Shown piece after piece: positions 36,746 to 51,813 of a stretch of DNA of 64,000 bases (positions are counted from its first letter, which is position 1; every line of letters begins with the position of its first letter). The notes under the pieces are model-generated. The model made no database searches and had not been told where the DNA came from. It saw nothing but the letters and a program-made list of their open reading frames with translations. Origin of the DNA: Cyanobacteria bacterium J06639_14. Lineage in GTDB: Bacteria > Cyanobacteriota > Cyanobacteriia > Phormidesmidales > Phormidesmidaceae. The translations under genes and the position numbers were made by a program. The DNA lies in assembly GCA_039818605.1 (NCBI GenBank), contig JBCBTQ010000002.1, forward strand, positions 13,047 to 77,046, written 5' to 3'.

Positions 36746-37468
36746 CTAGAACAAGCGGGCTTGACTGCTAATTTGCAGCGTGTCCAGGGCACTACCCAGC
36801 TCCTGAAGGCGGCGAGCACGGGCTTCTTGATCCAGGTTTTGCGAAATGTTGGTCAGGTTGAGATTGGTCAGCTGCGTATCCTGCCGCGACTGCAACAGTT
36901 CCGACTGCACCGCGCCCAAGACTTCTGACTGCCGAGCATTTTGCTGCGCCATCGCCTTGATGGCATCCTGGGTGGAGACCGCTACCTGGGCCGAATCCGC
37001 GTGCTGCTGCACCTGACCGATGGTGTTTTCCATCCAGGTGATTTTGTCGCGGGTCGCAGTTTGGCCTGACTGACTTAACACCGCATCCACTTGAGCGCGG
37101 GTGAGCTGGCGGTCGATTTCATTCGCGGTTTCAGCAGCTGCTTGAACCGTATCGGACTGGGCCAAGTCCCCGGTCAAAGTGGCGGCCAGTTCTGTCGCAA
37201 TGTCAGAGCGGACGAGATTAGGGTCAACCAGGCCCAGATCGCCCACCGCATTGTGGATCACCCCATCCAGCTCACCGGGGAGAGCATCCATCACACCCGT
37301 AATGGTTTGTTCGACGTAGGCTCTCACCTCCTCGAAGGCTTGGCGAAAGATGCCAAAGATGTCGTTAAACGTCGTATCGACTTGGGATGCTGCTGCCGGT
37401 TTGACCGGAGCAATCAGCAACGTGGTGGCCAGAATCGGGATCAAGGCAAAGCGCAGTTTCGGGGTCAT
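36746..37468 (-). CDS. Secreted alpha-helical protein (VirB5-like position)
   Basis: Signal peptide ...KPAAA|SQ, Q/A/L-rich helical sequence, and a stop just after the virB4-like gene. Confidence 0.45.
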   Translation of the reverse strand: MTPKLRFALIPILATTLLIAPVKPAAASQVDTTFNDIFGIFRQAFEEVRAYVEQTITGVMDALPGELDGVIHNAVGDLGLVDPNLVRSDIATELAATLTGDLAQSDTVQAAAETANEIDRQLTRAQVDAVLSQSGQTATRDKITWMENTIGQVQQHADSAQVAVSTQDAIKAMAQQNARQSEVLGAVQSELLQSRQDTQLTNLNLTNISQNLDQEARARRLQELGSALDTLQISSQARLF

Positions 37469-40278
37469 CGGGAACCTCCAGAATGAAGGGAGTTAAACGG
37501 GGCGATCGGGACTTCGGGATGGGGATTGCGTTCAGCAAACCAGCGCTCCGTGATGACTGACAGCGGCTCGCCGGATTGAATCGACTGCACCAGTAGCCGC
37601 GCAAATTCAGCGAGGCCGGTAAATTCATCGGGGGCATGGCGCAGCACCAGATCTCGGGTGGCTTGCTCATCCGGGTTATTCGCGACTGCCGCCAGCTGGG
37701 CAAAGGCGGGATAGTAGCGGCAGTAGGTGTAGATGCCGTTATTGTCCAAGAGCCACTGGCTGTAGATGCCTTCCCGTTTGGGAAAGAAGCTGTCGCTGGC
37801 GTTGCGACTGATGATGGCGGGCGGATACTTGAGAATGCGCTCAAAACTATCGACGGCTGTCGGTTGAACCCGACCAATCAGGCGCGTCGTCAGATTCTGA
37901 AAGATCTTGGCGCTGGCCGGTGATTTGTGGACGGTATCGGGATCTTGCGCCGAGATAATCACCCGAATCCCGGCTTTCGCACCGTTGGCGCAGAGCCTAC
38001 CAATCAGTGCGCCGATTTCGTCAAACTCAAACAGAATCGGGGCTTCATCGATGAAGAAGACCGAGGCGGGAGCTTCCAAAGCCCGCCGTAAAGCGGCGGC
38101 ATAGGCTGAAAGCGCCAGCACCGCTGCATCTTCCTCATTTGCCAAATTACGCAGCGCAAAGACCAGCAGTTGCGCATCCGTTGGGAAACTAGAGGGGGCT
38201 GAAATGGCTCGCCCGACGCGGCTGGAAAGCCAGAACCGGAGGCGTAGCTCAATCATGTTCAAGGCCGCTTCGATGTTGCCGCCGACCTGCTGCAAATCAA
38301 GCTGCTCCGGCGTGCAGAACGCGAGGAAATCAGCCAGCGTGGGGATTCGCTCCCAAGCGTCAGAACCTAAGCGGCCTGACATGGCTGCCAGATAGCGCTG
38401 CTGAATCTGACTATCGCCAAAGAAAGCATTGAGCGCCAGCACTAGGATGGAGCGAATGGTCTGGGTCATGACCGACTCGCTCGCCCCCGAGCCGACGATC
38501 ATTGTCAGCAGCGCCGATTCGAGGAACGATTGGAAGTCTTGCAGTCGCTCTTTCTGCTCGTCGCCCGGCAGGTGTCGCAAGTCAGGCAGCTCAAACAGGT
38601 TGTTGGACTCACGGGAGATGTCAAAGTAGGCTCCACCGACCAGCTGGGTGTAGTCCGTGAAGGTGGAAGAGCCATCAGGTTTCGGGAAGTCCAAGGCGAC
38701 GACGGGAAAGCGATGGGCCAAAGCCTGAGTGAGGATGCCGGAGACCAGCACCGATTTCCCGGCGCGGGTCGTGGCGAACAGCCCCAGGTTCTTGTGCTGG
38801 GTAAATAAATCCAGGTGAATGGGGCTGCCGCCTTCTTCCGCAATCAGCTCAAAGCCTTGGGTATCACAGGGCTGGGTGAGGACTAAGGGCATCAGCCCCG
38901 GTACTTCTCCCGTCAGATAGAGCTGCCTGCGGTTAAAGGGGCTGGCCATCAAGGCATCCCAAACAATCGGCAGCGTCTGGAGCCAGACCTTCCAGGCATA
39001 ATCTTGCTCTCGCTCCACCCAAGCGGGACGGCGAAAGCAGCTTTGCAGATACCGGCAGGCTTCATCCAACTGCTCCAGACTGGGGCGATGAATCAGGAAC
39101 ACCACAGCGTTGTGGATGGGCATGGCACCTTCGAAGAGTTCTTCCTGAGCTTCAATAGAGCGCTTCATCTTCAGCTCTGCGGCCACATCCACGGAATTCC
39201 CCTCTTCCGCCAGGGTGGCCGTCAGATTAGACTGCTTCAGCATTCGCTGGACGGTAGTCTTCACCAACGTTTCGTTGGCGCGGGTTAGCTGACAGAAGAT
39301 CTCGGTATCCGCCACGGTTTCTCTGGACAGGACTTCCCAGAGGTAACGCAGTTGAGCAAACTCACTGACCCAACCGCCTGGTTTTTCTAAAAAGGTGAGG
39401 GGAGCCACATACTGACCGTTGACCTTGGCCCAGGATTTGCCCGCCGTGGGAACCCCGGCTCGGGTGAGCAGGGTCGTGCTGTGGATTTCAGAGTTGACTT
39501 GTTCGTGTAACCCGTGGCCATCCAAAACAATCAGTTGGGGAATCGGAATCGGCTCGCTCTGATTAAACCTCTGCCACAGCAATGTCCATAAATTTGCTTC
39601 ACCCAAGGGTTTTACCGATAGTCCCATCTTGTTGGAAAGCACCTGCTCCCACAGCAGAAAGCCATCGGTAAAGGCTTTGGTGATGACCGTTTGCAGACGT
39701 TGGTTCTTAGCCTGTTGCAGTTCTCCCGTAAACGACTTCCACAGCGTTTCCCCCCGACCGATCAGCTTTTCAATCAGGTCTTGGGCTCCCTCAGAGCCAC
39801 TTTGTACGGTGTAGGTGACATAGAGCCTGAGAAACTTGGGTTTCCGCAAACCTTGCTGAGTGAGCTGCTGAATGCGGGCGCGATCGCTGGTGAGCAAAAA
39901 CTTCAGGGCATGGCTGGGGGCCAGATCTGTCAATTGAGCCAGGTCGTGCTGGCGATCTCGATCAGATGAAAACGAGCCCAGATGAAGCGTCAACCGTTCA
40001 CCGGCTGGGAGATCCTTCAACCCCGATTCCAGTTGACTAAAAATGGTCTCAACTTGTTCGTCGGTCAGCGTGTTGTGAATGCCTTTGCAGTCAAAGCCAA
40101 AGACGAAGCACAAATGCTCTCGGTTCTGCCCCTTCGTGAGCACATAAGCTCCGATCCGTCGCCCCCGCAATTCGACCCGCAGCATAGCGGCAAAGTTGAG
40201 GGCATCTTCAAAAGGGGTCAGGGTGCCGACGAATTGGCCGCCGAGCTTGAGGCGGTGTTTGCCGATTTTCTGTTTCAT
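37465..40278 (-). CDS. VirB4/TrbE-family T4SS ATPase
   Basis: 937 aa with Walker A ATTRAGKS and Walker B VFFIDEAPILF. Confidence 0.9.
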   Translation of the reverse strand: MKQKIGKHRLKLGGQFVGTLTPFEDALNFAAMLRVELRGRRIGAYVLTKGQNREHLCFVFGFDCKGIHNTLTDEQVETIFSQLESGLKDLPAGERLTLHLGSFSSDRDRQHDLAQLTDLAPSHALKFLLTSDRARIQQLTQQGLRKPKFLRLYVTYTVQSGSEGAQDLIEKLIGRGETLWKSFTGELQQAKNQRLQTVITKAFTDGFLLWEQVLSNKMGLSVKPLGEANLWTLLWQRFNQSEPIPIPQLIVLDGHGLHEQVNSEIHSTTLLTRAGVPTAGKSWAKVNGQYVAPLTFLEKPGGWVSEFAQLRYLWEVLSRETVADTEIFCQLTRANETLVKTTVQRMLKQSNLTATLAEEGNSVDVAAELKMKRSIEAQEELFEGAMPIHNAVVFLIHRPSLEQLDEACRYLQSCFRRPAWVEREQDYAWKVWLQTLPIVWDALMASPFNRRQLYLTGEVPGLMPLVLTQPCDTQGFELIAEEGGSPIHLDLFTQHKNLGLFATTRAGKSVLVSGILTQALAHRFPVVALDFPKPDGSSTFTDYTQLVGGAYFDISRESNNLFELPDLRHLPGDEQKERLQDFQSFLESALLTMIVGSGASESVMTQTIRSILVLALNAFFGDSQIQQRYLAAMSGRLGSDAWERIPTLADFLAFCTPEQLDLQQVGGNIEAALNMIELRLRFWLSSRVGRAISAPSSFPTDAQLLVFALRNLANEEDAAVLALSAYAAALRRALEAPASVFFIDEAPILFEFDEIGALIGRLCANGAKAGIRVIISAQDPDTVHKSPASAKIFQNLTTRLIGRVQPTAVDSFERILKYPPAIISRNASDSFFPKREGIYSQWLLDNNGIYTYCRYYPAFAQLAAVANNPDEQATRDLVLRHAPDEFTGLAEFARLLVQSIQSGEPLSVITERWFAERNPHPEVPIAPFNSLHSGGSR

Positions 40279-40561
40279 GGTAGATAAATCTCAGATATCG
40301 GGCATAGCCGCGACTCCAGGTGGGAGTCGGCACGAATTTGGCCGTGAACTTCCAGCTTTGTCCCCCGGTGAGAATCCACCAGGTAGACATGCCCCAAGCG
40401 GCGATGAAGCCAATCGAAATCCAGCTCAGGTTGAACCCGCGACCTACCAGGTATGACACGCCGGTAATGCAGAACCACGGGATGATCTGGTCAGCAGGAA
40501 TGGGGCCTAAACGGGGTTGGGCTCCCAGAATGGCGTTAACCGGACGAAATTGAGAAGGCAT
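40208..40561 (-). CDS. VirB3-like small membrane protein (tentative)
   Basis: 117 aa with two hydrophobic helices, immediately upstream of and overlapping the virB4-like gene. Confidence 0.4.
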   Translation of the reverse strand: MPSQFRPVNAILGAQPRLGPIPADQIIPWFCITGVSYLVGRGFNLSWISIGFIAAWGMSTWWILTGGQSWKFTAKFVPTPTWSRGYARYLRFIYHETENRQTPPQARRPIRRHPDPF

Positions 40562-40631
40562 AAATCGCTCAAGGGGGCTGAAAGAACAGGTGGTAGTTGC
40601 ACCCTCGATCTGATTAATGAAACAACCGGAA

Positions 40632-41213
40632 TTAGCCGGTGATGAGCGTCGTCAAGATGTCACCAGCGGTGACGGCGATGATGATAATGAGCGGTGTGCG
40701 GGCGATCGTTTGCCAATCCTCATCTTGGCGAGCGCCATTGATAACGCGCACCAAAGAGATGCCCACATAGAGCAGGAAAAGACCTCGCAGAACGTTGAAG
40801 ACTAGCGGAATCGCCTCTCCCGTTGCAGCGCCAAAATTGGTCTGCATCCAGGTTTCAGCCCCGCCAAAGAATTGTGCTTGGGCAGGAAAGGCGAGTACAG
40901 TCAACAGCGACAGCAAACTCACCCCTATGGCTATAACCGTTTGGCTGCCAACTATCCGGCACCTGGCAGCTTTGGCAGGGACACCATCTCTACCCGTAAC
41001 TTCTTGCTGCCAGATCAGACCCAAGCAGCTACCGGTAATTACGAGTAAGAGCACGGCTGGGCCATGAAGTACAAAATTTGTACCCATGCAGCCCACCATG
41101 ATCGCAGCCAGTAGCGAGCATGGCAGTTGACCAAAAGAATGAGTGATTTGGGCTACAAAATCGAACCGATAAACCAGATTTCCTGCGCGTACTTTTGAGT
41201 GCTGACTGATCAT
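40632..41213 (-). CDS. VirB2/TrbC-type pilin candidate with long leader
   Basis: An AxA site ...AFPAQA|QFFGG is followed by a ~95-aa segment with two hydrophobic helices. It is the first gene of the T4SS operon. Confidence 0.45.
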   Translation of the reverse strand: MISQHSKVRAGNLVYRFDFVAQITHSFGQLPCSLLAAIMVGCMGTNFVLHGPAVLLLVITGSCLGLIWQQEVTGRDGVPAKAARCRIVGSQTVIAIGVSLLSLLTVLAFPAQAQFFGGAETWMQTNFGAATGEAIPLVFNVLRGLFLLYVGISLVRVINGARQDEDWQTIARTPLIIIIAVTAGDILTTLITG

Positions 41214-41716
41214 TTCAGTCTCCTTAAATCAGTTCAGACTGTCTTGACTCGCGTGTTCAAAAATTAGCTCTAGGCGTGACTCAACTTCTAGAAAGATTTG
41301 ATCACTATAACAACGAATTCCGGGAATCGAAATAATCGCCCTCTCTTTTTGAGGACATCCGTCGATACCTAAAAGGCTAGCTAAAATCCTCAAATTCGTG
41401 ACTAAACCTGTAACGATGCGTGATTTCAATCAAGTGCTTGAGCATCTCAGAAAGAATACCGAGAGTTCTTATTACGCTAATACATCACTGGAAAAATGAA
41501 TAGAATAAATTGATACTTTCAATCACCTAAAGCGCAAATAAGTAGCACTAAAATTTCTGGACATTTTCCGTGATATCGATCACACAAATAATTCAGAGAA
41601 TATCCGACGTGGAGTCTTGGATAAGTTCTTCTTTAGTCTCAAATACTCAACTTAAATACGTCCTCAAAGGCCCATAGTAATGAGTCATCACAACGGCACA
41701 TATAGACTCTATCATA

Positions 41717-41741
41717 TATTGACGTCAAGACGTATTGACGT
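41717..41741 (+). promoter_or_regulatory. Repeated TATTGACGT motif / TTGACGTCAA palindrome upstream of parA
   Basis: tattgacgt occurs at 41717-41725 and 41733-41741. The perfect 10-bp palindrome ttgacgtcaa is at 41719-41728. The site lies ~100 nt upstream of the parA ATG. Confidence 0.4.
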
Positions 41742-41841
41742 TGTTGCGTTAAATAGCTTTAATGGCGACAGATTCCCTTGTTTGGTGAAGACGCCCAGCC
41801 TTTCAGAAAGTTCTGGGTTTAGTTATCGGGAGCGATCGCCC

Positions 41842-42606
41842 ATGAAGACTTTGAGCTGCTTGTCGCTCTCGGGAGGACAAGGGAAAACGTCGATCTCGCT
41901 ATTGCTAGGCCGACTATTGGCGCAGCAGGGACGGCGGGTATTGATGGTGGATGCCGATCCGCAGGCAAATCTGACGTTTTATTTAGGCCATGACGTGCAG
42001 CCGGATGCCCCGACGTTGCTGGAAGTGTTGAAGCGACAGGTAGAGACGGCAGCGGGCATTTATCCCCTGGCTTACGAGAATTTGTATCTGCTGCCTGCCG
42101 ATGAGGGCCTACATCAGGCCCAAGAGTATCTGGCCACCAGCGGCATGGGAGCGTTGGCGCTGCGCTACAGCTTAGAGGCCGTGAGTGAGCTGTTTGATGT
42201 TTGCCTGATCGATTCACCGCCCCAGCGCACTCAGATTTGTCTATCGGTGGTGGGAGCATCGGACTGGGTGTTGATTCCGGCGGAGGCCTCGACGAAGGGT
42301 GTCAATTCGCTGCTGCGCAGTCTGGAGCTGTTGGAGGAGATGCGACGCATCCGCGCGTTTACGGGACAGGTGCTGGGGGTGCTACCGTTTCGCGATAAGT
42401 GGTTTGGCCGATCTCAAGCAACGGATAGCCGCGAGGCCATAGCTGCCATGTGGCAGGTGGCAGGAGAGATTCGGGTGCTGCCGTCGATTTTGGAGAGTGA
42501 GCGCTACAAGCAAGCGATTCGGCAGGGGCGGTTATTGGCAGAGTTGGGGTATGGGGAGCTGGAATTGCCGCTGCGGCAGGTGATTGAGATCTTGGAGCAG
42601 GTGTAG
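41842..42606 (+). CDS. parA: ParA/Soj-family partition ATPase
   Basis: Deviant Walker A SLSGGQGKTS, and VLMVDADPQANLT. Start at the ATG at 41842 (MKTLSCL) inside track ORF 41680..42606. Confidence 0.9.
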   Translation: MKTLSCLSLSGGQGKTSISLLLGRLLAQQGRRVLMVDADPQANLTFYLGHDVQPDAPTLLEVLKRQVETAAGIYPLAYENLYLLPADEGLHQAQEYLATSGMGALALRYSLEAVSELFDVCLIDSPPQRTQICLSVVGASDWVLIPAEASTKGVNSLLRSLELLEEMRRIRAFTGQVLGVLPFRDKWFGRSQATDSREAIAAMWQVAGEIRVLPSILESERYKQAIRQGRLLAELGYGELELPLRQVIEILEQV

Positions 42607-42609
42607 GCC

Positions 42610-43053
42610 ATGAATGAAGATGCGCTACAGAGACTGATGCAACAGCAGCGCCCGACCGTACCGCCACGATCTGACGGACTGGAGGAGACGTCCCGTGTGA
42701 AGTCTCGTCAACCGGATGCAGATGCAGCTGTGACATCAAGATACAGTGACTCTGATGAGTCGGCGGGTGTTGACGTCAGCATGTCTATGAGTCAGGGTGA
42801 AGGGTTGGATCTGCCCCAGTTGGTGCGTACGACGACGCGCTTAGAAGCGGATATTGATAAAGCGCTACGGCATCTCTGCATGGATGAGAAGATCACTAAG
42901 GAGGTATGGTTTGAGGCGGCGTATCAGTATCTCGCGGAACATCCCAAGGCGATGAAGGTGGTGAATGGTATTGCGAAGGAGCGATATCAACGGCGGAAGC
43001 GGGCGGCGGATTTAAGGAAGTTGGAGACGATGCAGAAGCGGTTGAAGGGATAA
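42610..43053 (+). CDS. Putative centromere-binding partner (ribbon-helix-helix-like C-terminus)
   Basis: 147 aa, starting 4 nt after parA. The C-terminal TTRLEADIDKALRHLCMDEKITKEVWFEAAYQYL resembles a ParG/CopG RHH. Confidence 0.45.
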   Translation: MNEDALQRLMQQQRPTVPPRSDGLEETSRVKSRQPDADAAVTSRYSDSDESAGVDVSMSMSQGEGLDLPQLVRTTTRLEADIDKALRHLCMDEKITKEVWFEAAYQYLAEHPKAMKVVNGIAKERYQRRKRAADLRKLETMQKRLKG

Positions 43054-43432
43054 AAAGTGCGAAACCTGCATACTGAAAGGATTTAGCGCACACTACAATT
43101 GCATTTTCCAATGACAGGGGTTGGGCTCGTGCCCGAGCAGGAAGAGGTGTTTAGTCTGTTGAGGCGCAATAAGTAATCAGGTTAAACCTTACAAGGATAA
43201 GGAAAAGGCCCGAAGCCCTTGCTCGTCCTGTATTTGCTTTACCCCTCAAAATAATAGTTACGATGTACTGGTCTTAGTAGTTATAATGTACTGGACTCTA
43301 GAGCTCGACTTCGAATAGATACATGAGCGTAGATCAAGGCGTTATTTCTAGTGCTCATGCTTGAATAGCTGCAAAACCTCTGGGGATTGTAAAGATAGCT
43401 CTCTCTGAAACGATAGGAATTTTCAGTAGCAC

Positions 43433-44536
43433 ATGCCAACTGTCACTTTTTACCCAACCGGAAATGCCGACACCTGTCTTATCGGACTCGATAATGGGCG
43501 GAAAATTGTTTTTGACTATGCCAACACTTACGACCCAAGCCAGGAGAGCAAATATATTGATCTTGAGAAAGAAATTCGTCAAGCAAGCGGAAGACAGCAA
43601 AAAGTTGATGTCCTTGCCATTTCACATTTAGATAAAGATCACTATAAAGGTGCATCAACGCTTTTTGAGTTAGAGCACGCCAAGTGTTACCAGGGTGACG
43701 ATCGAATCAAAATTGACACGCTATGGGTTCCAGCCGCAGCAATCCTGGAGGAAGGTATCACTGAGGAAGGACGGATTCTTCGTTCAGAAGCCCGTTACCG
43801 CCTAAAACAAGGGAAAGGCATCCGTGTGTTTTCACGCCCTGATGCGCTCGAAGACTGGCTAATAGATAACGGCACAAGTCTTTCAGCGCGACGACAACTC
43901 ATCACAGATGCTGGTGAGATAGCACCTGAATTTACTCTTGTAAGAGATGGTATAGAATTTTTCGTTCACTCTCCCTTCGCTGAGAGAGCTGAAGACGGAG
44001 GATTGATCGTGCGCAACGACAGTGCCCTTTTCATGCAGGCAACATTCGACGTTCTAGGACGCAAAACCCGACTAATCCTCTCAGCCGACTGTCCATGGGA
44101 AATACTGGAAGGGATTATTCATGTTACTAAGGCTCACAATAATGAGGAGCGCTTGCAATGGGATATCAATAATATTCCACATCACTGTTCTTATCTCTCT
44201 CTGGCAGAAGACAAGGGGGAGAGAAAAACTATTCCCTCTGAAGATATTCAGTGGCTCTATGAAGAGCAAGGTGAGCGACATGGACTACTCATTTCAACTA
44301 GCGACCTAATTCCAGCAGAAGATACAAAACAGCCTCCACATAGACAGGCTGCGGCTTACTACGAGGATGCAGCAACAAAAATCGGTGGTGAATTTCTAGT
44401 CACTATGAAGGAACCATCTCCTCATGCGCCGAAGCCAATGATCATTGAGATTACAGGCCGTGGCCATAAATATAAAAAATCATTCGTGGCTCCTGCTATT
44501 GCAACCTCAACACAGAAACCTCCGAGAGCTGGATGA
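43433..44536 (+). CDS. Metallo-beta-lactamase-fold hydrolase, ComEC-like motif pattern
   Basis: Ordered motifs as in ComEC/Rec2 MBL domains: TGNADTCLI; VDVLAISHLDKDH; FFVHSPF; RNDSALF; LILSADCP; NIPHHCSYLS. The C-terminus ends ...STQKPPRAG. Confidence 0.75.
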   Translation: MPTVTFYPTGNADTCLIGLDNGRKIVFDYANTYDPSQESKYIDLEKEIRQASGRQQKVDVLAISHLDKDHYKGASTLFELEHAKCYQGDDRIKIDTLWVPAAAILEEGITEEGRILRSEARYRLKQGKGIRVFSRPDALEDWLIDNGTSLSARRQLITDAGEIAPEFTLVRDGIEFFVHSPFAERAEDGGLIVRNDSALFMQATFDVLGRKTRLILSADCPWEILEGIIHVTKAHNNEERLQWDINNIPHHCSYLSLAEDKGERKTIPSEDIQWLYEEQGERHGLLISTSDLIPAEDTKQPPHRQAAAYYEDAATKIGGEFLVTMKEPSPHAPKPMIIEITGRGHKYKKSFVAPAIATSTQKPPRAG

Positions 44537-46803
44537 ACACACAAAAGCCTACTGGTGAAATAGTTTCTCCAGAAGAATTGCGTGCCCCATACGCAAAGTC
44601 AGCCGTCAACTATATAAGCCACAACTTTACACCTTACATAAGGCTCATCGAATGTCGTGCGACTGATCATCTAGATGTCCTTGTAGTGGAGATAGATGTC
44701 GAGTTGTATCAGGATCGTCTTATTGACATCCAGCCAACAGAAATCATCGAAATATTATTTGGTGTTGATGCAGATACACTGCCAATATTTCGACCTCTGA
44801 GGACAGACTTTCCGATTGATACCCTACATGTCATGGTTGGGATAGCTGATCGTAGACCGTCCCTTTGTCTATGGGACATACCTTTTGAAGAGCTAAGATC
44901 ACGCTTTACTCCTTATCTGATGTTTGCCCGTTTGAAAGAGTGGCTTGAACAGTCAGTCGACGGAACATTACATGCTGCTGATCAACCGCTAGAACCAGTG
45001 CTCATCAGCAGTGGTGTTCAAATCATTATTCCATTTGATGCTGCCAGATCTCAGGATAGATACGTTGCTATTGGTAGTGCTGAGTTAGATGGAGAAATTG
45101 CTCTTCACTTTGTCAGACAAAGTCAAATATCTGAGGAAGCTTCATTACAACATGTACTTGTGGCTTTTAGGACACCAGAACTTACCCACCGAGCTGTTCA
45201 CTATGCACCGACTAATTTAGAAGAACTCAGATTATTCCTAGAGGACATTGATTTTGACATTCGATCAGCACTAAAAAGCTGGATAAGTCAAGTGCAACAG
45301 GAGAGCGGTTTGCTTGACTCTATTCCAGTCATCTTGCTGGAATTGCCCAAAAAACGGACAGAAGATTCCCCAGTTGAATCAACTGAATATTGGGGGTTCA
45401 TGGTTGGAGAAAAGAAAGTTCGCGCATTGGGTGAAGCCTTAGGAGCCTTTATTGATGCTTCAGCGTATGGGATAGAGGCTCCTGCAATTCTACTTAACTC
45501 TAATGAAGAGTATCAAAGTTTAGAAGCTTTTGAAATACTTGCTGTAAATGTCAATCCTGAAATTAGAAAAGACTTTCTAGCGAGCTTATCTGGATATAAA
45601 TTTGGTGAGCGGTTATCACTAGTAGCGATTGGTGCGGGTGCAGTTGGTTCGAAAATTATAGAAATAGCAGCACGCTGTGGTTTTGGAGAGTGGACTGTTG
45701 TTGATAAAGATGTCTTTTTGCCACACAATGCAGTCCGTCATGTACTTGGCAACTGGTCTATTGCTGAGCACAAAGCAGAAAGCCTTAAAGAATTTATCAA
45801 TTGCCTAGTACCTGGTTGTCCAGTTACTAAATCTATTGTTTTAGATATCAAAAATCCTGGGAAACGACAGGAGGTACTTGATCATGCTCTCGACGCAGCC
45901 GATTTGATCCTAGATATGTCTGCATCCGTGGCAGTAGCGAGACAAATTTGTGAACACACTACAAACAAACGGCGAGCTTCTTTATTTTTGAATCCAAGTG
46001 GTCGAGACATCGTCTTTCTTCTAGAAAATGCTGATAGGTCAATCACTTTGTGGGACTTAGAAGGTGCATACTATAGGAGTGTGGCAAGCAACGCTTTTCT
46101 GCAAGGCCATTTAAATGATGAAACGGCTCCTACACGTTATGGAAATGGTTGTCGTGATGTGACGGCACGCATCAGTGCTGATCAAATTGCGACCCTATCC
46201 GGTATCGGGCTCCGGCAACTTATTCAGCATCAGCAATTCGACACCGGTGTTGCGGCAATTTGGCATTCTGACTTACATACAGGCGAGATCAAAAAAATAT
46301 CTGTGCCTGTTGCTCCGGGCATTACTAGCAAGATTGGACAGTGGCGCATTCGTTGGAATTTATCGTTAATACACCATCTAGCACGGGAAAGAAAAGAAAA
46401 TCTCCCCAATGAAACAGGGGGAATATTACTGGGTCTAGTGGATCTAGAGCACCAAATGATCGTGGTAGTCGATAGCCAGCCAGCCCCCGCAGATAGTGTA
46501 AAACGACCCCATTTCTTCGAGCGCGGTACAACTGGCTTGGCAGATACACTCGATATCATTGCAAAAAAGACAGTAGGTCAGCTCAGATATCTCGGTGAAT
46601 GGCATTCACATCCTGATGGTGTAATGGCATACCCTAGCCAGGATGATGAAGCAGTTTTCGGGCATCTAGAAGCATGTTTAGCTGGTAGCAGCGAGCCTTA
46701 TCTTATGACTATTGTCGGCCAAGACGAAATCTTCACACGTTTGGGATATGACGGTGACAATGATGAAACAAGTTTAGCTTTGCAGGAACTACACTTGTCA
46801 TAA
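44533..46803 (+). CDS. Fused E2-like / E1 (ThiF-MoeB) / JAB-JAMM protein (Cap2+Cap3-like single chain)
   Basis: E2-like LHVMVGIADRRPSLCLWDIP (Cys112). E1 Rossmann VAIGAGAVGSKIIE...VVDKD...HNAVRH (aa ~360-560). JAB motifs ETGGILLG and EWHSHPDGVMAYPSQDD (aa ~605-735). The start overlaps the MBL stop (ATGA). Confidence 0.8.
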   Translation: MNTQKPTGEIVSPEELRAPYAKSAVNYISHNFTPYIRLIECRATDHLDVLVVEIDVELYQDRLIDIQPTEIIEILFGVDADTLPIFRPLRTDFPIDTLHVMVGIADRRPSLCLWDIPFEELRSRFTPYLMFARLKEWLEQSVDGTLHAADQPLEPVLISSGVQIIIPFDAARSQDRYVAIGSAELDGEIALHFVRQSQISEEASLQHVLVAFRTPELTHRAVHYAPTNLEELRLFLEDIDFDIRSALKSWISQVQQESGLLDSIPVILLELPKKRTEDSPVESTEYWGFMVGEKKVRALGEALGAFIDASAYGIEAPAILLNSNEEYQSLEAFEILAVNVNPEIRKDFLASLSGYKFGERLSLVAIGAGAVGSKIIEIAARCGFGEWTVVDKDVFLPHNAVRHVLGNWSIAEHKAESLKEFINCLVPGCPVTKSIVLDIKNPGKRQEVLDHALDAADLILDMSASVAVARQICEHTTNKRRASLFLNPSGRDIVFLLENADRSITLWDLEGAYYRSVASNAFLQGHLNDETAPTRYGNGCRDVTARISADQIATLSGIGLRQLIQHQQFDTGVAAIWHSDLHTGEIKKISVPVAPGITSKIGQWRIRWNLSLIHHLARERKENLPNETGGILLGLVDLEHQMIVVVDSQPAPADSVKRPHFFERGTTGLADTLDIIAKKTVGQLRYLGEWHSHPDGVMAYPSQDDEAVFGHLEACLAGSSEPYLMTIVGQDEIFTRLGYDGDNDETSLALQELHLS

Positions 46804-46817
46804 GGAAAGTAACAGCT

Positions 46818-47534
46818 ATGAATTTACCAGATGCCTATGTCCTCCGGGCAAGAGTAGCACCCGTCGTTATTATCAGCCTGCCCTTTCTTATAAAGTTTGC
46901 CCATGCTTTGATAAGTAGTAATCAACTTCCAACTATAGTAGCTACCGGTATTATTGGACTTGCGATTATTACGCTGCTCGCTCAACTAGGACGAGATCGA
47001 GGCAAAAAGCTAGAGCCTATGCTTTTTCAAACATGGGGAGGGAAACCAACAACAGCTATATTGCGGCATCGCGACACACGCCTAGATACTGTCACAAAGT
47101 CGAGACTTCATGGCTGGCTAAATCAAAGAATAGATGGATTACATCTTCCTGATGCTTTAGTAGAGCTTGATGATCCTGTAGAAGCAGATAAACAATATGA
47201 TTCAGCTGTTTACTGGCTACGGAGTAAGACGGCAGATAATCAGAGATTCGCACGTTTGCATGAAGAGAATGTTAGCTATGGTTTTCGTCGTAATTTACTT
47301 GGCCTAAAACCATTAGGAATAATATTTTCCATTCTATTGATATTTGCTGATCTTGTCGTAAATCAGCCATTGACTGTGGATAAAACAATTGATTTTCTAT
47401 CTCAGCCATCTATTGCTGTTGCACTTTTTTTGGCAGTATTTCTTATATTCTTTGTGACCGAATCCTGGGTTAGGAATTCGGCTGAAGCTTATGCGTTTGC
47501 TTTGTTTAACACAGTTGAATCACTTTCCTCTTGA
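46818..47534 (+). CDS. Four-helix membrane protein, third gene of the MBL/E2-E1-JAB operon
   Basis: 238 aa. Two hydrophobic helices at the N-terminus and two at the C-terminus flank a ~110-aa charged loop. GGAAAG lies 8 nt upstream of the ATG, 14 nt after the previous stop. Confidence 0.6.
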   Translation: MNLPDAYVLRARVAPVVIISLPFLIKFAHALISSNQLPTIVATGIIGLAIITLLAQLGRDRGKKLEPMLFQTWGGKPTTAILRHRDTRLDTVTKSRLHGWLNQRIDGLHLPDALVELDDPVEADKQYDSAVYWLRSKTADNQRFARLHEENVSYGFRRNLLGLKPLGIIFSILLIFADLVVNQPLTVDKTIDFLSQPSIAVALFLAVFLIFFVTESWVRNSAEAYAFALFNTVESLSS

Positions 47535-47587
47535 GTCAGACAAGTTAATGGCTTATAAAGCTCGGTGTGAATTCTAAAGTGACTTTC

Positions 47588-48190
47588 CTAGTCCTCAGCC
47601 GCCAAAATCTGCTCCACCGTTAACGCCAACTCCGGAAACGTCAGACACGGCACTGCCTCCCCCTCCACATATTCCGCCTTCCGATAAACCCCATCCACCA
47701 GCGTCAGCACAATCACTTTCTTACCCTTTCCGCGCTGACAATACTTCGCTAGAATCTGCCCTCGGTAATCCACAATCCAGAACTCCGGCACCTGCAGTGC
47801 CTCATACTCCTCCTGCTTCTCCACCAGGTCCGTACTCCAGTTTCCAGAGGCAATCTCCACAATCATCCGAGGAACGCTGCGAATCCCCGGTTGCCGATCT
47901 TCCCGTCGCGTTGCAGGCCGGTCAATCACCGCCACATCAGGTCGTCGGCCCCTAGTGTTGTCAATCATCAACGCATTCCGCTTTCGCACCGAGTACCGCA
48001 GCTTCATGCGCCGATACTGCAGTTCAAACATAAATGAGAGGAACTCTAAAATCTCTTCATGCCAATCATCCGGCTCCGGGATGAGCACCAGCCTCCCATC
48101 GACCAGCTCAAATTCATTGAGTTCATTGCCATCCTCAACGTCAATGAACGCTGCAAAACTGAGGTCTCGCGTGACAGCCGGAATCATCAT
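47588..48190 (-). CDS. Uma2-family (DUF820) endonuclease-like protein
   Basis: Contains FELVDGRLVLIPEP...PDVAVIDR...PRMIVEIASG...EYEALQVPEFWIVD. Confidence 0.8.
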   Translation of the reverse strand: MMIPAVTRDLSFAAFIDVEDGNELNEFELVDGRLVLIPEPDDWHEEILEFLSFMFELQYRRMKLRYSVRKRNALMIDNTRGRRPDVAVIDRPATRREDRQPGIRSVPRMIVEIASGNWSTDLVEKQEEYEALQVPEFWIVDYRGQILAKYCQRGKGKKVIVLTLVDGVYRKAEYVEGEAVPCLTFPELALTVEQILAAED

Positions 48191-48346
48191 GGCATTTTCG
48201 ATCAGTCCATAGTGGCGTCAGCCTATCAGCCCATCTGAACACCTGGGCAAATAAAGGGATGACAACATGCCGTCATTCTAGTCCATGCGTTTTAGCCCAT
48301 AATTGCCGCAACTCATCAAGGGTTGTATTTTGGGTCGGCGCTTTCA

Positions 48347-48909
48347 GTAGACACAGTAGACAGCGGTAGACGCTCGGTAGACACCTGATCTACTGCCCAA
48401 ATCCTTTGCCTATAGGCTTTTCAAGCATTTCGGTAGACAAGTAGACAGGTTTTAACTCTGGAGAGTCTGTAAAAAGTGTCTACTTGTCTACCGTTTCCCT
48501 ACAACCCATAACCGTCAATACTTTCAGCGGTAGACACCCTGTCTACCGTTGCCGCAGATCTGTCTACCGCGTCTACCGTGGCTCGCCACTGCAACCGATT
48601 CCCCACCCCAGACGTCTCCCCATATCCCATTGCCTCCAACTCTCGAAAGTGAGATCGAATCACCTCCGCACTCGCCTTCCGCAAGCTGCGCTCATAATTG
48701 CGGACATCCTTTGCCCGCAGCCAACCCCGCACCCGCGACAGCTGAATCAGCTTCGTGTAAACCGCCTCTAGCGCTCCGTCTACCGAGTCGCCCTCTGCAT
48801 ACAGCAGCTTCACCTGACCCATAAACCATCGCGCCAGCTTGATCGCTGCCCCCATCGTCTGGGCCGAGATCCGCCCTGCCGGTAGACACCCGTCTACCGC
48901 TCCCTGCAA
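48347..48909. repeat. Iteron-like array of GGTAGACA / TGTCTACC 8-mers (candidate replication origin)
   Basis: At least 15 copies by eye. Direct copies start near 48347, 48356, 48365, 48376, 48432, 48441, 48529 and 48891. Inverted copies start near 48477, 48485, 48540, 48561, 48571, 48778 and 48902. The ~20-bp palindrome cggtagacacc(c/ct)gtctaccg occurs twice (48528-48548, 48890-48909). Confidence 0.8.
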
Positions 48910-50904
48910 ACAGTGCAGAATCAATGCTAGCCGCCCCGTGTAGCCCTGCATCTTTGAGTAAACCGCCTGCAAACCCTGATGCGTTTCCGTCACCCGCAGG
49001 TGATCCAACTGGTCATACCACTCTGCAAACAATGCCTTCGCCTCCGTCGTCAACCGATAACGCTGGGGTGGATAGTCCTCCAACTGCCGGTACAGACCAT
49101 AGAGCCGTTCTGAAAGGTCGTAGCGCACCGTCTGCTTGGGAAACGGGGCAGGCTTTAGGGGCAACAAACACCACAAAAACCGTGCCCACTGCCCATTCGC
49201 GTCAGAAAAATCGCCCATCATTTCCCGCAAAATGTCCGGCTGAATCGTGCCAGTAATGTTGAGGCTGGTGCGAGGAATGCTGATGCGCATCCCGCTAGCC
49301 CGATCCACCTTCAATCCTGAGCCATCAAAGGCTGTCAGCAGCGATTCTTTATCATTGCCCCGACCATTGCGGTACTGGTTCTGCCCCTTGAATAAGCCCG
49401 CCAACTCATCTGGCGTCACCAAAATGCCCCGCTCCGGCTGTTGAGATTGAATGCGAGCGATCGCTTCCCGTGTGGCATCGGAAGTGTGATACTCCCTAGG
49501 CAGCGGTTTCCGAGGCCGCATTCCCCTATCTTCTGCCTTCGCCTGTTCCCAATCCCGCAGGTTCACCTCATACTCCGCAACCGCATACTCATAGTCCTGA
49601 TCGGCTTCTGCCTGCAATTGTGTAAGCGGCCCCAATATCTGTCGCTGAAGGGGGCTCTTTTTACTGCCCGAGGGGGCCACCAATCCCGTAAACAGAATCG
49701 GCGGTACAGAAAACCCCATCCCCGCGTCAATTTCCAATTCCGTCCCTACCCGCAGCAGAGAAGCCGCCACGGGTAGCAGCGTTACCAACATGGCTGCAGG
49801 CGTTGCCCCGATCCAAGCTGCTATGTGCTCCAGCGGTTCTGCCAAATCATGATGCAGATACTCTCCTAACTGCAGCTGGTAATCACCAATCTTCAATAGC
49901 TGCCGGATTTGCGCAGTGCGATCGCCTCGTTCCTCATCCTGTTCCAACTCGGCCTGAATCGGCTTCACCAAACTCCAGATATCTTTAGCGGCTAGCCCCG
50001 ATTCTCGATGCCATTGCAAAACCTGTGCCGCCAAGTCCAGCTCCGAATGCTCTGCGGCCAGATAGCTGCGCAACTGTTCTTTCAAAGCAGGCAAATCCAA
50101 TGATTTGGCCATTACCGGGGAAGACGATCCAAGCTGTCGCCGTTCTCCCACCGCCGCTCGAATCTGCTCAGCCGTTGCGCCCTCCGCAATCCAATCCGCA
50201 ATATCGAAGCCGCCATGCTTGTGCAGGTTTTGCCAACGCAGGCTCTCAGGATAGGGATAGCACCACTGAGCGTTCGGAAAATCCTGGGCAATCTCCTCCA
50301 TGTGGGCAATGCCGACCTGATCGCGATCAGGGCACAGCACCAGGCGAGCCTCCTCCAAGTCTGGGGCATAGTTGCCATAGCTGCGATACTTCTTGGAACC
50401 ACCCAAGGTTGTCGTTGCCGGAATGCCAATATTCCACAACGCATCCGCGCAACCTTCCCCTTCCACCATCCAGATGGATTGGCCTGTGGCTGTCGCTCGC
50501 CTCACTTCCGCATAGCGATAAATCGGCACCTGCTTCCGAACCGCTGGCGTCAGCCCCTTCACCCACCGTTGCCCATCCCAGTGGTACTGAACAAAGAACT
50601 TGGTGCCGCTCCCGCGATCTACCCGCGTCACTTTCACTAGGGGCTGTCCCTGCCGAGTCGGATAGAAGAAGTCCTGCCGCTGCTGGGGACGAGCGGGCTT
50701 CTCTGACTGAACCGATGTCGAGAAATACTGGCCCCAGAGACCATCAGCGGTTGCCCCGCGATAGACGTAGCCCTCAACGCTGGCATCTTGGTCGATATGG
50801 GTGTGACAGAAGACCACCTCATCATTCCAGCGGCAATCTGGGTCCTTGGTGCGATCGCAAATCGGGCAGGGCCGATTTCGCCCCGAGTAAACGTACTGTG
50901 TCAT
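48499..50904 (-). CDS. Primase-helicase type replication protein (Zn-ribbon + Toprim-like + DUF3987-like P-loop)
   Basis: N-terminal CPICDRTKDPDCRW...FCHTH. Toprim-like EGEGCADAL...LCPDRDQVG. P-loop GLVAPSGSKKSPL. The C-terminal tail is encoded by the iteron copies (TVDAVDRSAATVDRVST). Confidence 0.75.
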   Translation of the reverse strand: MTQYVYSGRNRPCPICDRTKDPDCRWNDEVVFCHTHIDQDASVEGYVYRGATADGLWGQYFSTSVQSEKPARPQQRQDFFYPTRQGQPLVKVTRVDRGSGTKFFVQYHWDGQRWVKGLTPAVRKQVPIYRYAEVRRATATGQSIWMVEGEGCADALWNIGIPATTTLGGSKKYRSYGNYAPDLEEARLVLCPDRDQVGIAHMEEIAQDFPNAQWCYPYPESLRWQNLHKHGGFDIADWIAEGATAEQIRAAVGERRQLGSSSPVMAKSLDLPALKEQLRSYLAAEHSELDLAAQVLQWHRESGLAAKDIWSLVKPIQAELEQDEERGDRTAQIRQLLKIGDYQLQLGEYLHHDLAEPLEHIAAWIGATPAAMLVTLLPVAASLLRVGTELEIDAGMGFSVPPILFTGLVAPSGSKKSPLQRQILGPLTQLQAEADQDYEYAVAEYEVNLRDWEQAKAEDRGMRPRKPLPREYHTSDATREAIARIQSQQPERGILVTPDELAGLFKGQNQYRNGRGNDKESLLTAFDGSGLKVDRASGMRISIPRTSLNITGTIQPDILREMMGDFSDANGQWARFLWCLLPLKPAPFPKQTVRYDLSERLYGLYRQLEDYPPQRYRLTTEAKALFAEWYDQLDHLRVTETHQGLQAVYSKMQGYTGRLALILHCLQGAVDGCLPAGRISAQTMGAAIKLARWFMGQVKLLYAEGDSVDGALEAVYTKLIQLSRVRGWLRAKDVRNYERSLRKASAEVIRSHFRELEAMGYGETSGVGNRLQWRATVDAVDRSAATVDRVSTAESIDGYGL

Positions 50905-51121
50905 TATCAGCTCCTGATTCCAGAAGCTGGGTCATCAACATTAAGTCGCTGATTCTTAGTAAAGCCATGACCAAAGTCGCATCATGTCGTAGACATTTCC
51001 AGCAACTTTGCTATAGTTGAAAACACAAGTTTTACTAGCAGGGCGATCTCTGAAGCGGTTCTGTCAAACCCCTTCAAATTATTGATTAACCCAGCTTAAA
51101 AGACAAAAAACAAAAGTGATG

Positions 51122-51149
51122 CACCCTGACACTTCAATCGTTAGGGTGT
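51122..51149 (-). terminator. Hairpin with flanking A/T runs between xis-like gene and rep
   Basis: caccctgac-acttcaatc-gttagggtg. It is followed by TTTTTT on the plus strand and by ...CTTTTGTTTTTTG on the minus strand. A second hairpin, ctcttctga/tcagaagag, lies at 51159-51189. Confidence 0.4.
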
Positions 51150-51240
51150 ATTTTTTCACTCTTCTGATGCTGTCATCTCTTCAGAAGAGCCTTCAATTTA
51201 GTGATGCGTTTTCAGGAAAGAATTTGTTTTTTTGATATTC

Positions 51241-51730: not shown

Positions 51731-51813
51731 GCTCCATCACGATATCGATGAGGCTAGCAATTTATATATTGCATGTCAAGAGTTATAATTTGCGAACTGG
51801 ATTACTTATCTCT

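What the first reader, a model, noticed from the sequence alone, without database searches (positions are those of the whole stretch)
44437..44536. MBL protein ends in an extended tail terminating in Gly (…STQKPPRAG*), translationally coupled to the E1: possible conjugation substrate
In type II CBASS, the E1-E2 protein Cap2 adenylates and conjugates the C-terminus of the CD-NTase, and the JAB protein Cap3 reverses this. Here no Ubl is encoded. The upstream MBL enzyme ends in a low-complexity Ala/Ser/Thr/Pro/Lys tail (KKSFVAPAIATSTQKPPRAG) with a terminal glycine. Its stop codon overlaps the start of the E2-E1-JAB gene. A reasonable inference is that the MBL hydrolase itself is the Ubl-equivalent, primed or inactivated by C-terminal conjugation.
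Basis: inference. Interest (0 to 1): 0.7.

Follow-up and report, generated by a model that had tools for sequence, protein, structure and literature searches.

The report
6A-MBL defence enzyme's conjugation tail
The hydrolase gene ends in a floppy tail with a near-invariant Pro-Arg-Ala-Gly end, which almost certainly lets the neighbouring ubiquitin-type enzyme attach the hydrolase to other proteins; but this operon belongs to the already named anti-phage system 6A-MBL.

Summary
ORF 43433..44536 (367 aa, MBL fold) ends ...STQKPPRAG*, and its TGA overlaps the ATG (44533) of a 756-aa E2-E1-JAB protein.

The tail is not chance. In 77 distinct homologous loci, 72 end in P-R-A-G and the other 5 in x-R-[VI]-G. 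The 14 residues before the motif are variable and predicted disordered. All synonymous codons occur, so the constraint acts on the protein. About 44% of loci carry 1-6 extra residues after the Gly, like Ubl precursors.

68 of 69 loci with enough downstream sequence encode E2-E1-JAB directly after the MBL. No conserved Ubl ORF exists.

Relatives without the tail provide a natural control. They carry an AGS_C domain instead, or sit next to an E2-only protein, and they lack the E2-E1-JAB protein.

It is not new. Both proteins pass NCBIfam equivalog models for the "6A-MBL" system (Iyer 2006 operon 6a; van den Berg 2024). Ye et al. 2024 already state that MBL pathways conjugate their enzymes.

I also found a usual third gene, either a patatin or a 4-TM protein (here 46818..47534). 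It is probably the effector.

The parts
43433..44536 (+). Gene for the 6A-MBL system MBL-fold enzyme (367 aa), the predicted conjugation substrate.
   Evidence: NCBIfam NF058524 6A-MBL_enzyme scores 363 bits against a cutoff of 220. The AF2 model has pLDDT 90.8. The best Foldseek hit is the ComEC MBL domain 9ic4, E 4e-12. There are 3830 homologues.
43625..43642 (+). MBL metal-binding motif H65-L-D67-K-D69-H70, an HxDxDH variant of HxHxDH.
   Evidence: H65, D67, D69 and H70 are invariant in A1. So are D219, H250, H251 and H303. The enzyme is therefore expected to be catalytically competent.
44486..44533 (+). Disordered C-terminal tail, residues 352-367 (VAPAIATSTQKPPRAG).
   Evidence: pLDDT is below 50 for residues 352-363 and 365-367. 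Residues 350-363 are variable across homologues.
44522..44533 (+). Conserved terminal motif P364-R365-A366-G367. Gly367 is the predicted site of adenylation and thioester formation.
   Evidence: R, A and G are invariant and P is at 98% in A1. PRAG occurs in 72 of 77 distinct loci, using all 6 Arg codons and all 4 Pro, Ala and Gly codons.
44533..46803 (+). Gene for the E2-E1-JAB fusion (a Cap2/Cap3-like 'cap2_3' protein, 756 aa). Its ATG overlaps the MBL stop codon.
   Evidence: NCBIfam NF058523 6A-MBL_cap2_3 scores 579 bits against a cutoff of 320. Pfam finds Prok-E2_A, ThiF and Prok-JAB. The best PDB sequence hits are Cap2 entries 7tsx, 7tsq and 7to3. Residues conserved at 95% or more are C112, G367xGAxGS, D461, C540, E627, H691-S-H693, S702 and D705.
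44683..45033 (+). E2-like domain (residues 51-167), with conserved Cys112 encoded at 44866..44868.
   Evidence: Pfam Prok-E2_A, E 2.9e-17. C112 is conserved at 95% or more across 50 homologues.
45610..46158 (+). E1 adenylation domain (residues about 360-542). It includes the nucleotide-binding loop G367-S373 and conserved Cys540.
   Evidence: Pfam ThiF, E 2.7e-13. The Cap2 match covers residues 363-478. Conserved residues are listed.
46366..46698 (+). JAB/JAMM isopeptidase domain (residues 612-722). The motif is intact: E627 ... H691-S-H693-P ... S702-x-x-D705.
   Evidence: Pfam Prok-JAB, E 1.2e-11. NCBIfam Cap3 matches residues 623-734. Conservation is shown.
46818..47534 (+). Third gene, encoding a 238-aa protein with four predicted TM segments, 14 nt after the cap2_3 stop. 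It is probably the membrane effector of the operon.
   Evidence: Homologues sit directly downstream of cap2_3 in 13 of 47 distinct loci. A patatin occupies the same slot in 19 of 47. It has no Pfam, NCBIfam or PADLOC hit.

Best explanation
This is a cyanobacterial, mobile-element-borne copy of the known anti-phage system 6A-MBL. In architecture it is a type II CBASS in which an MBL-fold hydrolase takes the place of the CD-NTase.

The MBL enzyme is a compact globule (residues 1-351) carrying a 16-residue flexible tail that ends in P-R-A-G.

The following steps are inferred, not shown:
- The E1 domain of the neighbouring E2-E1-JAB protein adenylates the carboxylate of Gly367.
- The enzyme is passed as a thioester to the E1 cysteine (probably C540) and then to the E2 cysteine (C112).
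- It is then ligated to lysines of unknown targets, which primes or raises MBL activity during infection.
- The JAB domain reverses the conjugates. In the roughly 45% of homologues that have 1-9 residues after the Gly, JAB first trims the precursor to expose the Gly.
- The downstream 4-TM protein (a patatin phospholipase in other members) is the likely cell-killing effector.

Shown here: the anatomy, the conservation, the co-occurrence and the intact catalytic residues. Inferred: the chemistry, the direction of regulation and the effector role.
For: Family membership: both proteins pass the NCBIfam equivalog models 6A-MBL_enzyme and 6A-MBL_cap2_3.

The tail:
- It is predicted disordered.
- PRAG is invariant while the linker before it is variable.
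- 72 of 77 distinct loci have PRAG, and the other 5 have xR[VI]G.
- All synonymous codons are used, so selection acts on the peptide and not on the ribosome-binding site.
- 34 of 77 loci have 1-6 residues after the Gly, as in Ubl precursors. Among proteins the figure is 168 of 389.

Pairing: E2-E1-JAB lies directly downstream in 68 of 69 loci. The junction overlaps or has a gap of 11 nt or less in 63 of 64 loci.

Catalytic residues: the E2 Cys, the E1 nucleotide loop and Cys, and the JAMM motif are all conserved at 95% or more.

No conserved Ubl ORF is present.

Natural control: three independent MBL lineages without PRAG carry an AGS_C domain and have no E2-E1-JAB protein. Fisher's exact test gives p = 7e-5. 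E2-only partners go with different tails.

Precedent: Cap2 conjugates cGAS through its C-terminal Gly or Ala, and Cap3 cleaves after that residue (PMC10097602). Ye et al. state the same for MBL pathways.
Against: No biochemical evidence was obtained here, and the primary 6A-MBL paper (van den Berg 2024) could not be read.

No complex model of the tail in the E1 pocket was possible with the tools.

In type II CBASS only the last residue is conserved. Here a four-residue motif is conserved, so recognition may differ; for example, the Arg may be read by JAB rather than by E1.

The conjugation targets and the MBL substrate are unknown.

A few divergent family members have no recognisable [RK]xG motif.
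Confidence: 0.8

Rival explanations
1. The PRAG tail is a non-covalent docking or JAB-recognition element, acting as an autoinhibitory tether or a processing signal. The MBL is never transferred to targets, and the E1 and E2 domains act on something else or only on each other.
For: A four-residue motif that includes Arg is more than type II CBASS needs, where only the terminal Gly or Ala is conserved. The post-Gly extensions show that a peptidase step matters.
Against: The E2 Cys112, the E1 Cys540 and the adenylation loop are all conserved at 95% or more alongside JAB. No other candidate substrate is encoded in 77 loci. A terminal Gly on a flexible tail is the hallmark of an E1 substrate.
Confidence: 0.1
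2. The conserved end of the gene reflects nucleotide-level constraint, namely a ribosome-binding site or translational coupling for the overlapping downstream gene. It is not a protein motif.
For: The two genes overlap as GGATGA, and a purine-rich GAGAG lies 6 nt upstream of the ATG. The junction is tight across the family.
Against: All 6 Arg codons and all 4 Pro, Ala and Gly codons are used at the motif. The motif lies 0-18 nt from the stop codon, depending on the length of the extension. The same motif occurs where the genes do not overlap.
Confidence: 0.02
3. The MBL is the target of the conjugation machinery, or is unrelated to it. The species actually activated is a Ubl, or a small molecule, encoded elsewhere in the genome.
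For: Other bacterial systems (Bil, Bub) use dedicated Ubls.
Against: The operon travels as a self-contained unit on plasmids and islands in many phyla without any Ubl. Tail type co-varies with partner type.
Confidence: 0.04
4. The tail is an unrelated signal, such as a degron or a localisation or secretion motif, that happens to be conserved.
For: It is a short, disordered C-terminal motif.
Against: The tail is strictly coupled to the presence of E2-E1-JAB and is lost in AGS_C-type relatives (Fisher p = 7e-5). Variable residues after the Gly are tolerated, which is unusual for a C-terminal degron.
Confidence: 0.04

Closest known systems
6A-MBL anti-phage system (operon type '6a' of Iyer, Burroughs and Aravind 2006; named and tested by van den Berg et al. 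2024; NCBIfam NF058524 and NF058523)
   Same: It has the same two core genes in the same order: a specialised MBL followed by an E2-E1-JAB triple-module protein. Both pass the curated equivalog cut-offs. The operon description matches.
   Different: The host is a cyanobacterium and the carrier is a mobile element. A third, 4-TM gene follows the core pair, and the NCBIfam, PADLOC and Pfam libraries searched here hold no model that matches it. The NCBIfam enzyme model stops at residue 344 and so does not include the tail.
Type II CBASS (CD-NTase + Cap2 E1-E2 + Cap3 JAB + effector)
   Same: It has an E2-E1 adenylating and conjugating enzyme related to Cap2 (best PDB hits) and a Cap3-like JAB domain. 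The substrate enzyme has a flexible tail ending in Gly and no Ubl fold. Patatin or TM proteins sit in the effector slot. CapH/CapP-like HTH plus M78 regulators lie upstream in some loci.
   Different: The conjugated enzyme is an MBL hydrolase, not a nucleotidyltransferase. E2, E1 and JAB are fused in one chain. The conserved motif is four residues (P-R-A-G), whereas in CBASS only the last residue is conserved. Nearly half of the family has residues after the Gly. No signalling molecule is known.
E2-only CBASS (Yan et al., bioRxiv 10.1101/2022.05.25.493364)
   Same: Some relatives of this MBL pair with a stand-alone CBASS-type E2. One clade of these has a Gly followed by a short conserved peptide (KPSG-LWAEI). 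This resembles cGAS Gly406-Glu407, where the E2 removes the residue after the Gly.
   Different: The window operon is not of this type, because it has the full E2-E1-JAB protein.
Eukaryotic and bacterial Ubl precursors (ubiquitin, Bil Ubl, BubAB)
   Same: They share a C-terminal Gly exposed by a peptidase that removes a short variable extension. The Gly is activated by an E1 and passed to an E2.
   Different: There is no beta-grasp fold and only a single Gly. The modifier is itself a 40-kDa enzyme.

Membership tests
6A-MBL anti-phage system | An MBL-fold protein of the specialised 6A-MBL family. | tested here: met
   NF058524 equivalog, 363 bits against a cutoff of 220, E 1.3e-108. The HxDxDH motif and further His and Asp residues are invariant. 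The MBL fold is confirmed by AF2 and Foldseek.
6A-MBL anti-phage system | A single polypeptide with E2, E1 and JAB domains in that order. | tested here: met
   NF058523 equivalog, 579 bits against a cutoff of 320. Pfam finds Prok-E2_A at 51-167, ThiF at 360-472 and Prok-JAB at 612-722.
6A-MBL anti-phage system | The two genes are adjacent and co-directional in one operon. | tested here: met
   They share a 4-nt overlap, GGATGA. The same arrangement occurs in 68 of 69 homologous loci.
6A-MBL anti-phage system | It protects against phage, with jumbo phage reported for the Pseudomonas aeruginosa system. | not testable with these tools
   This is known only from the literature. The primary paper is not held in the library.
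Type II CBASS | A CD-NTase (cGAS/DncV-like nucleotidyltransferase) is the signalling enzyme. | tested here: not met
   The operon contains no CD-NTase. The enzyme in that position has an MBL fold. The system therefore works like type II CBASS but is not a member.
Type II CBASS | A Cap2-like E1-E2 with catalytic cysteines, plus a Cap3-like JAMM peptidase. | tested here: met
   PADLOC CBASS E1-E2 and JAB models match at E 1e-25 and 4e-22. Cap2 structures are the best PDB hits. C112, C540 and the JAMM motif are conserved.
Type II CBASS | The substrate enzyme ends in a conserved Gly or Ala only when Cap2 and Cap3 are present. | tested here: met
   The analogous pattern holds for the MBL. The PRAG tail goes with E2-E1-JAB in 68 of 69 loci. 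AGS_C-type relatives lack both the tail and the partner in 3 of 3 lineages.
Ubl conjugation substrate (functional class) | ATP-dependent adenylation and thioester formation at the C-terminal Gly, followed by an isopeptide bond to a target. | not testable with these tools
   This needs biochemistry. Only the sequence prerequisites are shown here.

The most novel reading that the evidence does not exclude
The MBL may not be a terminal nuclease effector. It may instead be a true functional replacement of the CD-NTase, that is, a sensor or signal-generating hydrolase that switches on a separate membrane effector (patatin or 4-TM protein). On this reading the MBL family has independently acquired the main regulatory architectures of CBASS: an AGS_C fusion (type I-like), E2-E1-JAB with a P-R-A-G tail (type II-like) and E2-only partners with their own tail types. 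It would also mean that the four-residue motif and the frequent post-Gly extension make JAB processing an obligatory maturation step, unlike in CBASS. If the MBL produces a messenger by hydrolysis, that would be a new class of immune signal.
Probability: 0.3. Interest if true: 0.7.

Novelty: new member of a known kind. Interest (0 to 1): 0.4.

Why it matters
The operon is a clean natural case of an enzyme, rather than a Ubl, being used as the modifier in a ubiquitin-like cascade. It extends the cGAS/Cap2 principle to an unrelated fold.

The comparative data give concrete experimental handles:
- Gly367, Arg365 and the post-Gly extensions.
- Cys112 and Cys540.
- The JAMM residues.

The data also point to a usually overlooked third gene, a patatin or TM protein. 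This recasts the MBL as an upstream component rather than the killer.

For genome annotation, the practical outcome is that the window's three genes can be labelled as a 6A-MBL system with a putative membrane effector.

Tried and rejected
- Ribosome-binding-site or gene-overlap constraint as the cause of PRAG conservation. Rejected on codon diversity and the variable distance of the motif from the stop codon.
- A hidden Ubl gene. Clustering of all ORFs of 45 aa or more around 77 loci found only patatin, TM, PDC-M48B-type MBL, HTH/M78 and shadow ORFs. An 85-aa upstream ORF occurs only in one closely related group of loci and appears to be a remnant.
- A beta-grasp domain at the C-terminus of the MBL. 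Rejected: the AF2 model is a single MBL globule whose last two strands (residues 336-348) run straight into the disordered tail.
- Promoter and terminator scans of 42900..47800 gave no more sites than shuffled sequence, so they are uninformative.
- The Foldseek viral library gave two hits with E below 1e-3, an unnamed protein (F8UBN2, E 1.8e-08, TM about 0.52) and a putative exonuclease; neither clarified function.
- Literature. The primary papers of van den Berg 2024, Ledvina 2023 and Burroughs 2015 are not held. One search with min_terms=2 was swamped by clinical MBL papers.
- A model of the tail docked in the E1 pocket could not be made. The structure tool folds single chains only and accepts only unmodified window or database sequences.
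- The genome-contig scan with a single sequence recovered only 5 loci. The metagenome scan with the alignment was needed to get statistics.

Full report
**1. Observation**

The + strand ORF 43433..44536 encodes a 367-aa protein ending ...KKSFVAPAIATSTQKPPRAG. Gly367 (GGA, 44531-44533) is followed by TGA (44534-44536). The next ORF, 44533..46803 (756 aa), starts at ATG 44533-44535. The two genes therefore share GGATGA.

The finding's start coordinate (44437) is only approximate. What it describes is present.

The upstream protein has no Pfam hit. Its N-terminus matches the MBL effector modules of PADLOC (RTasMBL, LmuA, Avs1a). The downstream protein is not only an E1: Pfam finds Prok-E2_A (51-167), ThiF (360-472) and Prok-JAB (612-722).

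**2. What the two proteins are**

NCBIfam places both above the curated equivalog cut-offs:
- The MBL matches NF058524, 'anti-phage 6A-MBL system MBL-fold protein', at 363 bits (cutoff 220).
- The 756-aa protein matches NF058523, '6A-MBL system cap2_3 protein', at 579 bits (cutoff 320).

The literature traces the system as follows:
- It is listed as the defence system '6A-MBL', attributed to van den Berg et al. 2024.
- Ye et al. [quoted passage not shown] The primary 6A-MBL paper is not in the library. I could not check how much of the conjugation was demonstrated for the MBL itself.

**3. Structure of the MBL**

AlphaFold2 with a 46-sequence alignment gives mean pLDDT 90.8 and pTM 0.88. Residues 1-351 form one compact domain. 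Residues 352-367 have pLDDT below 50.

Foldseek against the PDB gives MBL-fold phosphodiesterases and nucleases. The ComEC MBL domain 9ic4 scores E 4e-12, and the phosphorylcholine esterase Pce 1wra scores E 6.5e-10.

The motif H65-x-D67-x-D69-H70 is invariant, as are D219, H250, H251 and H303. The enzyme should be active. There is no beta-grasp domain.

**4. The tail across the family**

The family is large: 3830 proteins at E ≤ 1e-3. It spans cyanobacteria, alpha- and gammaproteobacteria, Leptospira, Bacteroidota, Deinococcus and Clostridium plasmids.

*Top homologues.* All 120 contain ...PRAG. 60 end at the Gly and 60 carry 1-5 further, variable residues.

*Alignment A1.* R365, A366 and G367 are invariant and P364 is at 98%. 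The 14 preceding positions have a top-residue frequency of 0.2-0.6.

*77 distinct genomic and metagenomic loci.*

| Feature | Count |
|---|---|
| PRAG | 72 |
| PRVG | 3 |
| YRVG | 1 |
| SRIG | 1 |
| Gly is the last residue | 43 |
| 1-6 residues follow the Gly | 34 |

The motif is encoded by all six Arg codons and all four Pro, Ala and Gly codons. Conservation is therefore at the peptide level, not a by-product of the overlapping start or ribosome-binding site.

*All 409 full-length proteins collected.* 389 have [RK]-x-G within the last 16 residues: RAG 334, KAG 17, and the rest RVG, RFG, RSG, RMG and others. 221 of the 389 end at the Gly.

A flexible linker of no fixed sequence, ending in a fixed short motif with a Gly that is either terminal or followed by a disposable peptide, is the signature of a Ubl-type E1 substrate and its precursor form.

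**5. Coupling to the E2-E1-JAB protein**

In 68 of the 69 distinct loci with at least 600 nt downstream, the E2-E1-JAB gene follows directly. The exception, L076, has a recognisable E1-JAB portion after a 1.1-kb gap.

The junction overlaps in 33 of 64 loci, 17 of them with the 4-nt type seen here. It has a gap of 0-11 nt in 30 loci.

In an alignment of 50 E2-E1-JAB proteins, these residues are conserved at 95% or more (window numbering):
- C112 in the E2 domain.
- G367-x-G-A-x-G-S373, D391, D393, R402, K414 and D461 in the adenylation domain.
- C540.
- The JAMM residues E627, H691-S-H693, S702 and D705.

The best matches among solved structures are Cap2 (7tsx, 7tsq, 7to3).

Clustering of all ORFs of 45 aa or more around the 77 loci shows no conserved small Ubl-like gene.

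**6. Natural controls**

*AGS_C-type relatives.* Relatives of about 500 aa lack the tail and carry a C-terminal AGS_C domain instead. This is PF18134, the 'adenylyl/guanylyl and SMODS C-terminal sensor domain'. P0152 scores E 3e-40 and P0145 scores E 2e-22. P0271 matches the C-terminus of PADLOC CBASS cyclases at E 4e-50. The loci of three such lineages contain no E2-E1-JAB gene:
- P0271 (L094).
- P0167 (L095-L098).
- P0145 (L099-L100).

Comparing 68 of 69 with 0 of 3 gives Fisher p = 7e-5.

*E2-only relatives.* Other relatives are followed by a stand-alone protein of about 250 aa that matches the CBASS 'E2' models (E 4e-25 and 2.5e-29). Their tails differ:
- One clade ends KP[SK]G-LW[GA][ES][IL].
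- Another has no Gly.

The first clade resembles E2-only CBASS. There, a conserved penultimate Gly of cGAS is joined to the E2 after the following residue is removed (bioRxiv 10.1101/2022.05.25.493364).

Tail type thus co-varies with partner type, as expected if the tail is what the partner acts on.

**7. Comparison with type II CBASS**

Jenson et al. 2023 (PMC10097602) showed the following:
- Cap2 forms a thioester with the C-terminal Gly of cGAS and conjugates it to lysines.
- Only the last residue (Gly or Ala) is conserved, and only in operons with Cap2 and Cap3.
- Cap3 cleaves exactly after that residue.
- Conjugation raises cGAMP output.

The present system shares the logic but differs in four ways:
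- The substrate is an MBL hydrolase.
- E2, E1 and JAB are fused in one chain.
- The conserved element is four residues long.
- Post-Gly extensions are common, which implies a maturation role for JAB.

The operon fails the defining CBASS feature of a CD-NTase. It works like type II CBASS but is not a member. It is a member of 6A-MBL.

**8. The third gene**

Fourteen nucleotides after the cap2_3 stop lies ORF 46818..47534. It encodes a 238-aa protein with four predicted TM segments and has no family hit.

Among 47 distinct PRAG-type loci with at least 1 kb beyond cap2_3, the slot directly downstream is occupied as follows:

| Directly downstream of cap2_3 | Loci |
|---|---|
| Patatin-like phospholipase of about 400 aa, usually overlapping the stop by 8-23 nt | 19 |
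| Homologue of the window's TM protein | 13 |
| A second TM family | 1 |
| A patatin or TM gene elsewhere in the locus | 8 |
| Neither | 6 |

Gluconobacter oxydans pGOX1, one of the genomes in Iyer's 2006 list, has the patatin version annotated.

The AGS_C-type and E2-only loci carry the same kinds of partner: a 245-aa 4-TM protein overlapping the MBL start, or a homologous patatin.

The whole MBL family therefore mirrors CBASS: an enzyme, an optional Ub-like or AGS_C regulator, and a membrane-attacking effector. This favours the MBL being an upstream sensing or signalling enzyme rather than the terminal effector. That is consistent with Ye et al.'s wording 'signaling enzymes'. It remains inference, because no product or signal is known.

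**9. Context**

The window is a mobile element. It carries:
- ParA (41680..42606).
- A DUF3987 primase/helicase-like protein (48499..50904, - strand).
- A Uma2 endonuclease (47588..48190, - strand).
- An HTH plus S24 repressor (51748..52443).

An identical MBL protein is recorded from the MAG 'Cyanobacteria bacterium J06639_14'. The family occurs on 103 PLSDB plasmids.

**10. Verdict**

The novelty is that of a new, cyanobacterial member with a TM effector. The added value lies in the P-R-A-G and precursor-tail statistics, the natural controls, and the recognition of the third-gene effector slot.

Confidence that Gly367 is the E1 substrate is about 0.8. Interest is 0.4.

Noticed in passing
window 46818..47534 (+): A 238-aa protein with four predicted TM segments lies 14 nt after the cap2_3 stop. 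Its homologues occupy the same slot in 13 of 47 distinct 6A-MBL loci, and a patatin-like phospholipase occupies it in 19 of 47. It has no Pfam, NCBIfam or PADLOC model. It is probably the effector of the system.
   Followed up: partly
P0145, P0152, P0167, P0271; loci L094-L100: MBL homologues of about 500 aa replace the PRAG tail with a C-terminal AGS_C domain (PF18134), the sensor domain otherwise fused to CBASS and Pycsar cyclases. Their loci lack E2-E1-JAB but keep a 4-TM or patatin partner. This is a 'type I-like' MBL system.
   Followed up: partly
L102 2125..4761; L104 961..2831: There are E2-only versions: the MBL is followed by a CBASS-type stand-alone E2 of about 250 aa. One clade has the tail ...KPSG-LWAEI, reminiscent of E2-CBASS peptide exchange. 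Another has no Gly at all (...RRPAQPWSK).
   Followed up: partly
P0159 (660 aa): An MBL of this family carries a C-terminal extension of about 300 aa in place of the PRAG tail. Pfam found only a SEC-C motif in it (res 600-614), the motif also seen in the stand-alone E2 of L104. By eye, part of the extension resembles an E2-like fold.
   Followed up: no
L021 5603..6439, L022, L036, L037 8446..9543, L057, L077 4161..4973, L091 7678..8496: A second, different MBL-fold gene often lies just downstream of 6A-MBL operons. L037 and L077 match PADLOC PDC-M48B at up to E 8e-87, and L021, L022, L036 and L057 are BLAST homologues of L077. L091 was judged only by eye from an HxDxDH-like motif and was not scanned. 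Whether this is a neighbouring system or a functional link is unknown.
   Followed up: no
P0122, P0064, P0030 C-termini: Some homologues have a duplicated terminal motif: ...PRAGRGPSRAG, ...PRAGRAGS and ...PRAGAPRA. This could give alternative processing sites.
   Followed up: no
L010-L013 5452..5790 and 4937..5455 (-); L002-L004 4333..5564 (-): HTH_3 and Peptidase_M78 gene pairs, resembling the CapH/CapP regulators of CBASS, lie divergently upstream of alphaproteobacterial 6A-MBL operons. LexA-like repressors lie upstream of the AGS_C and E2-only versions. The window has no such pair adjacent to the operon.
   Followed up: no
L005 6001..7103: The MBL gene of this alphaproteobacterial MAG locus is split by a frameshift near residue 221. 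It is either a pseudogene or an assembly error. The PRAG end and the downstream E2-E1-JAB gene are intact.
   Followed up: no
window 37465..52443: The operon sits in a mobile-element backbone. This includes ParA (41680..42606), a 937-aa protein without a Pfam hit (37465..40278, - strand), a DUF3987 primase/helicase-like protein (48499..50904, - strand), a Uma2 endonuclease (47588..48190, - strand) and an HTH plus Peptidase_S24 repressor (51748..52443).
   Followed up: partly
NCBIfam NF058524 against window 43433..44536: The curated 6A-MBL_enzyme model ends at residue 344 of the protein. It therefore leaves out the conserved PRAG tail, and annotation pipelines will not flag tail-less or truncated variants.
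   Followed up: no
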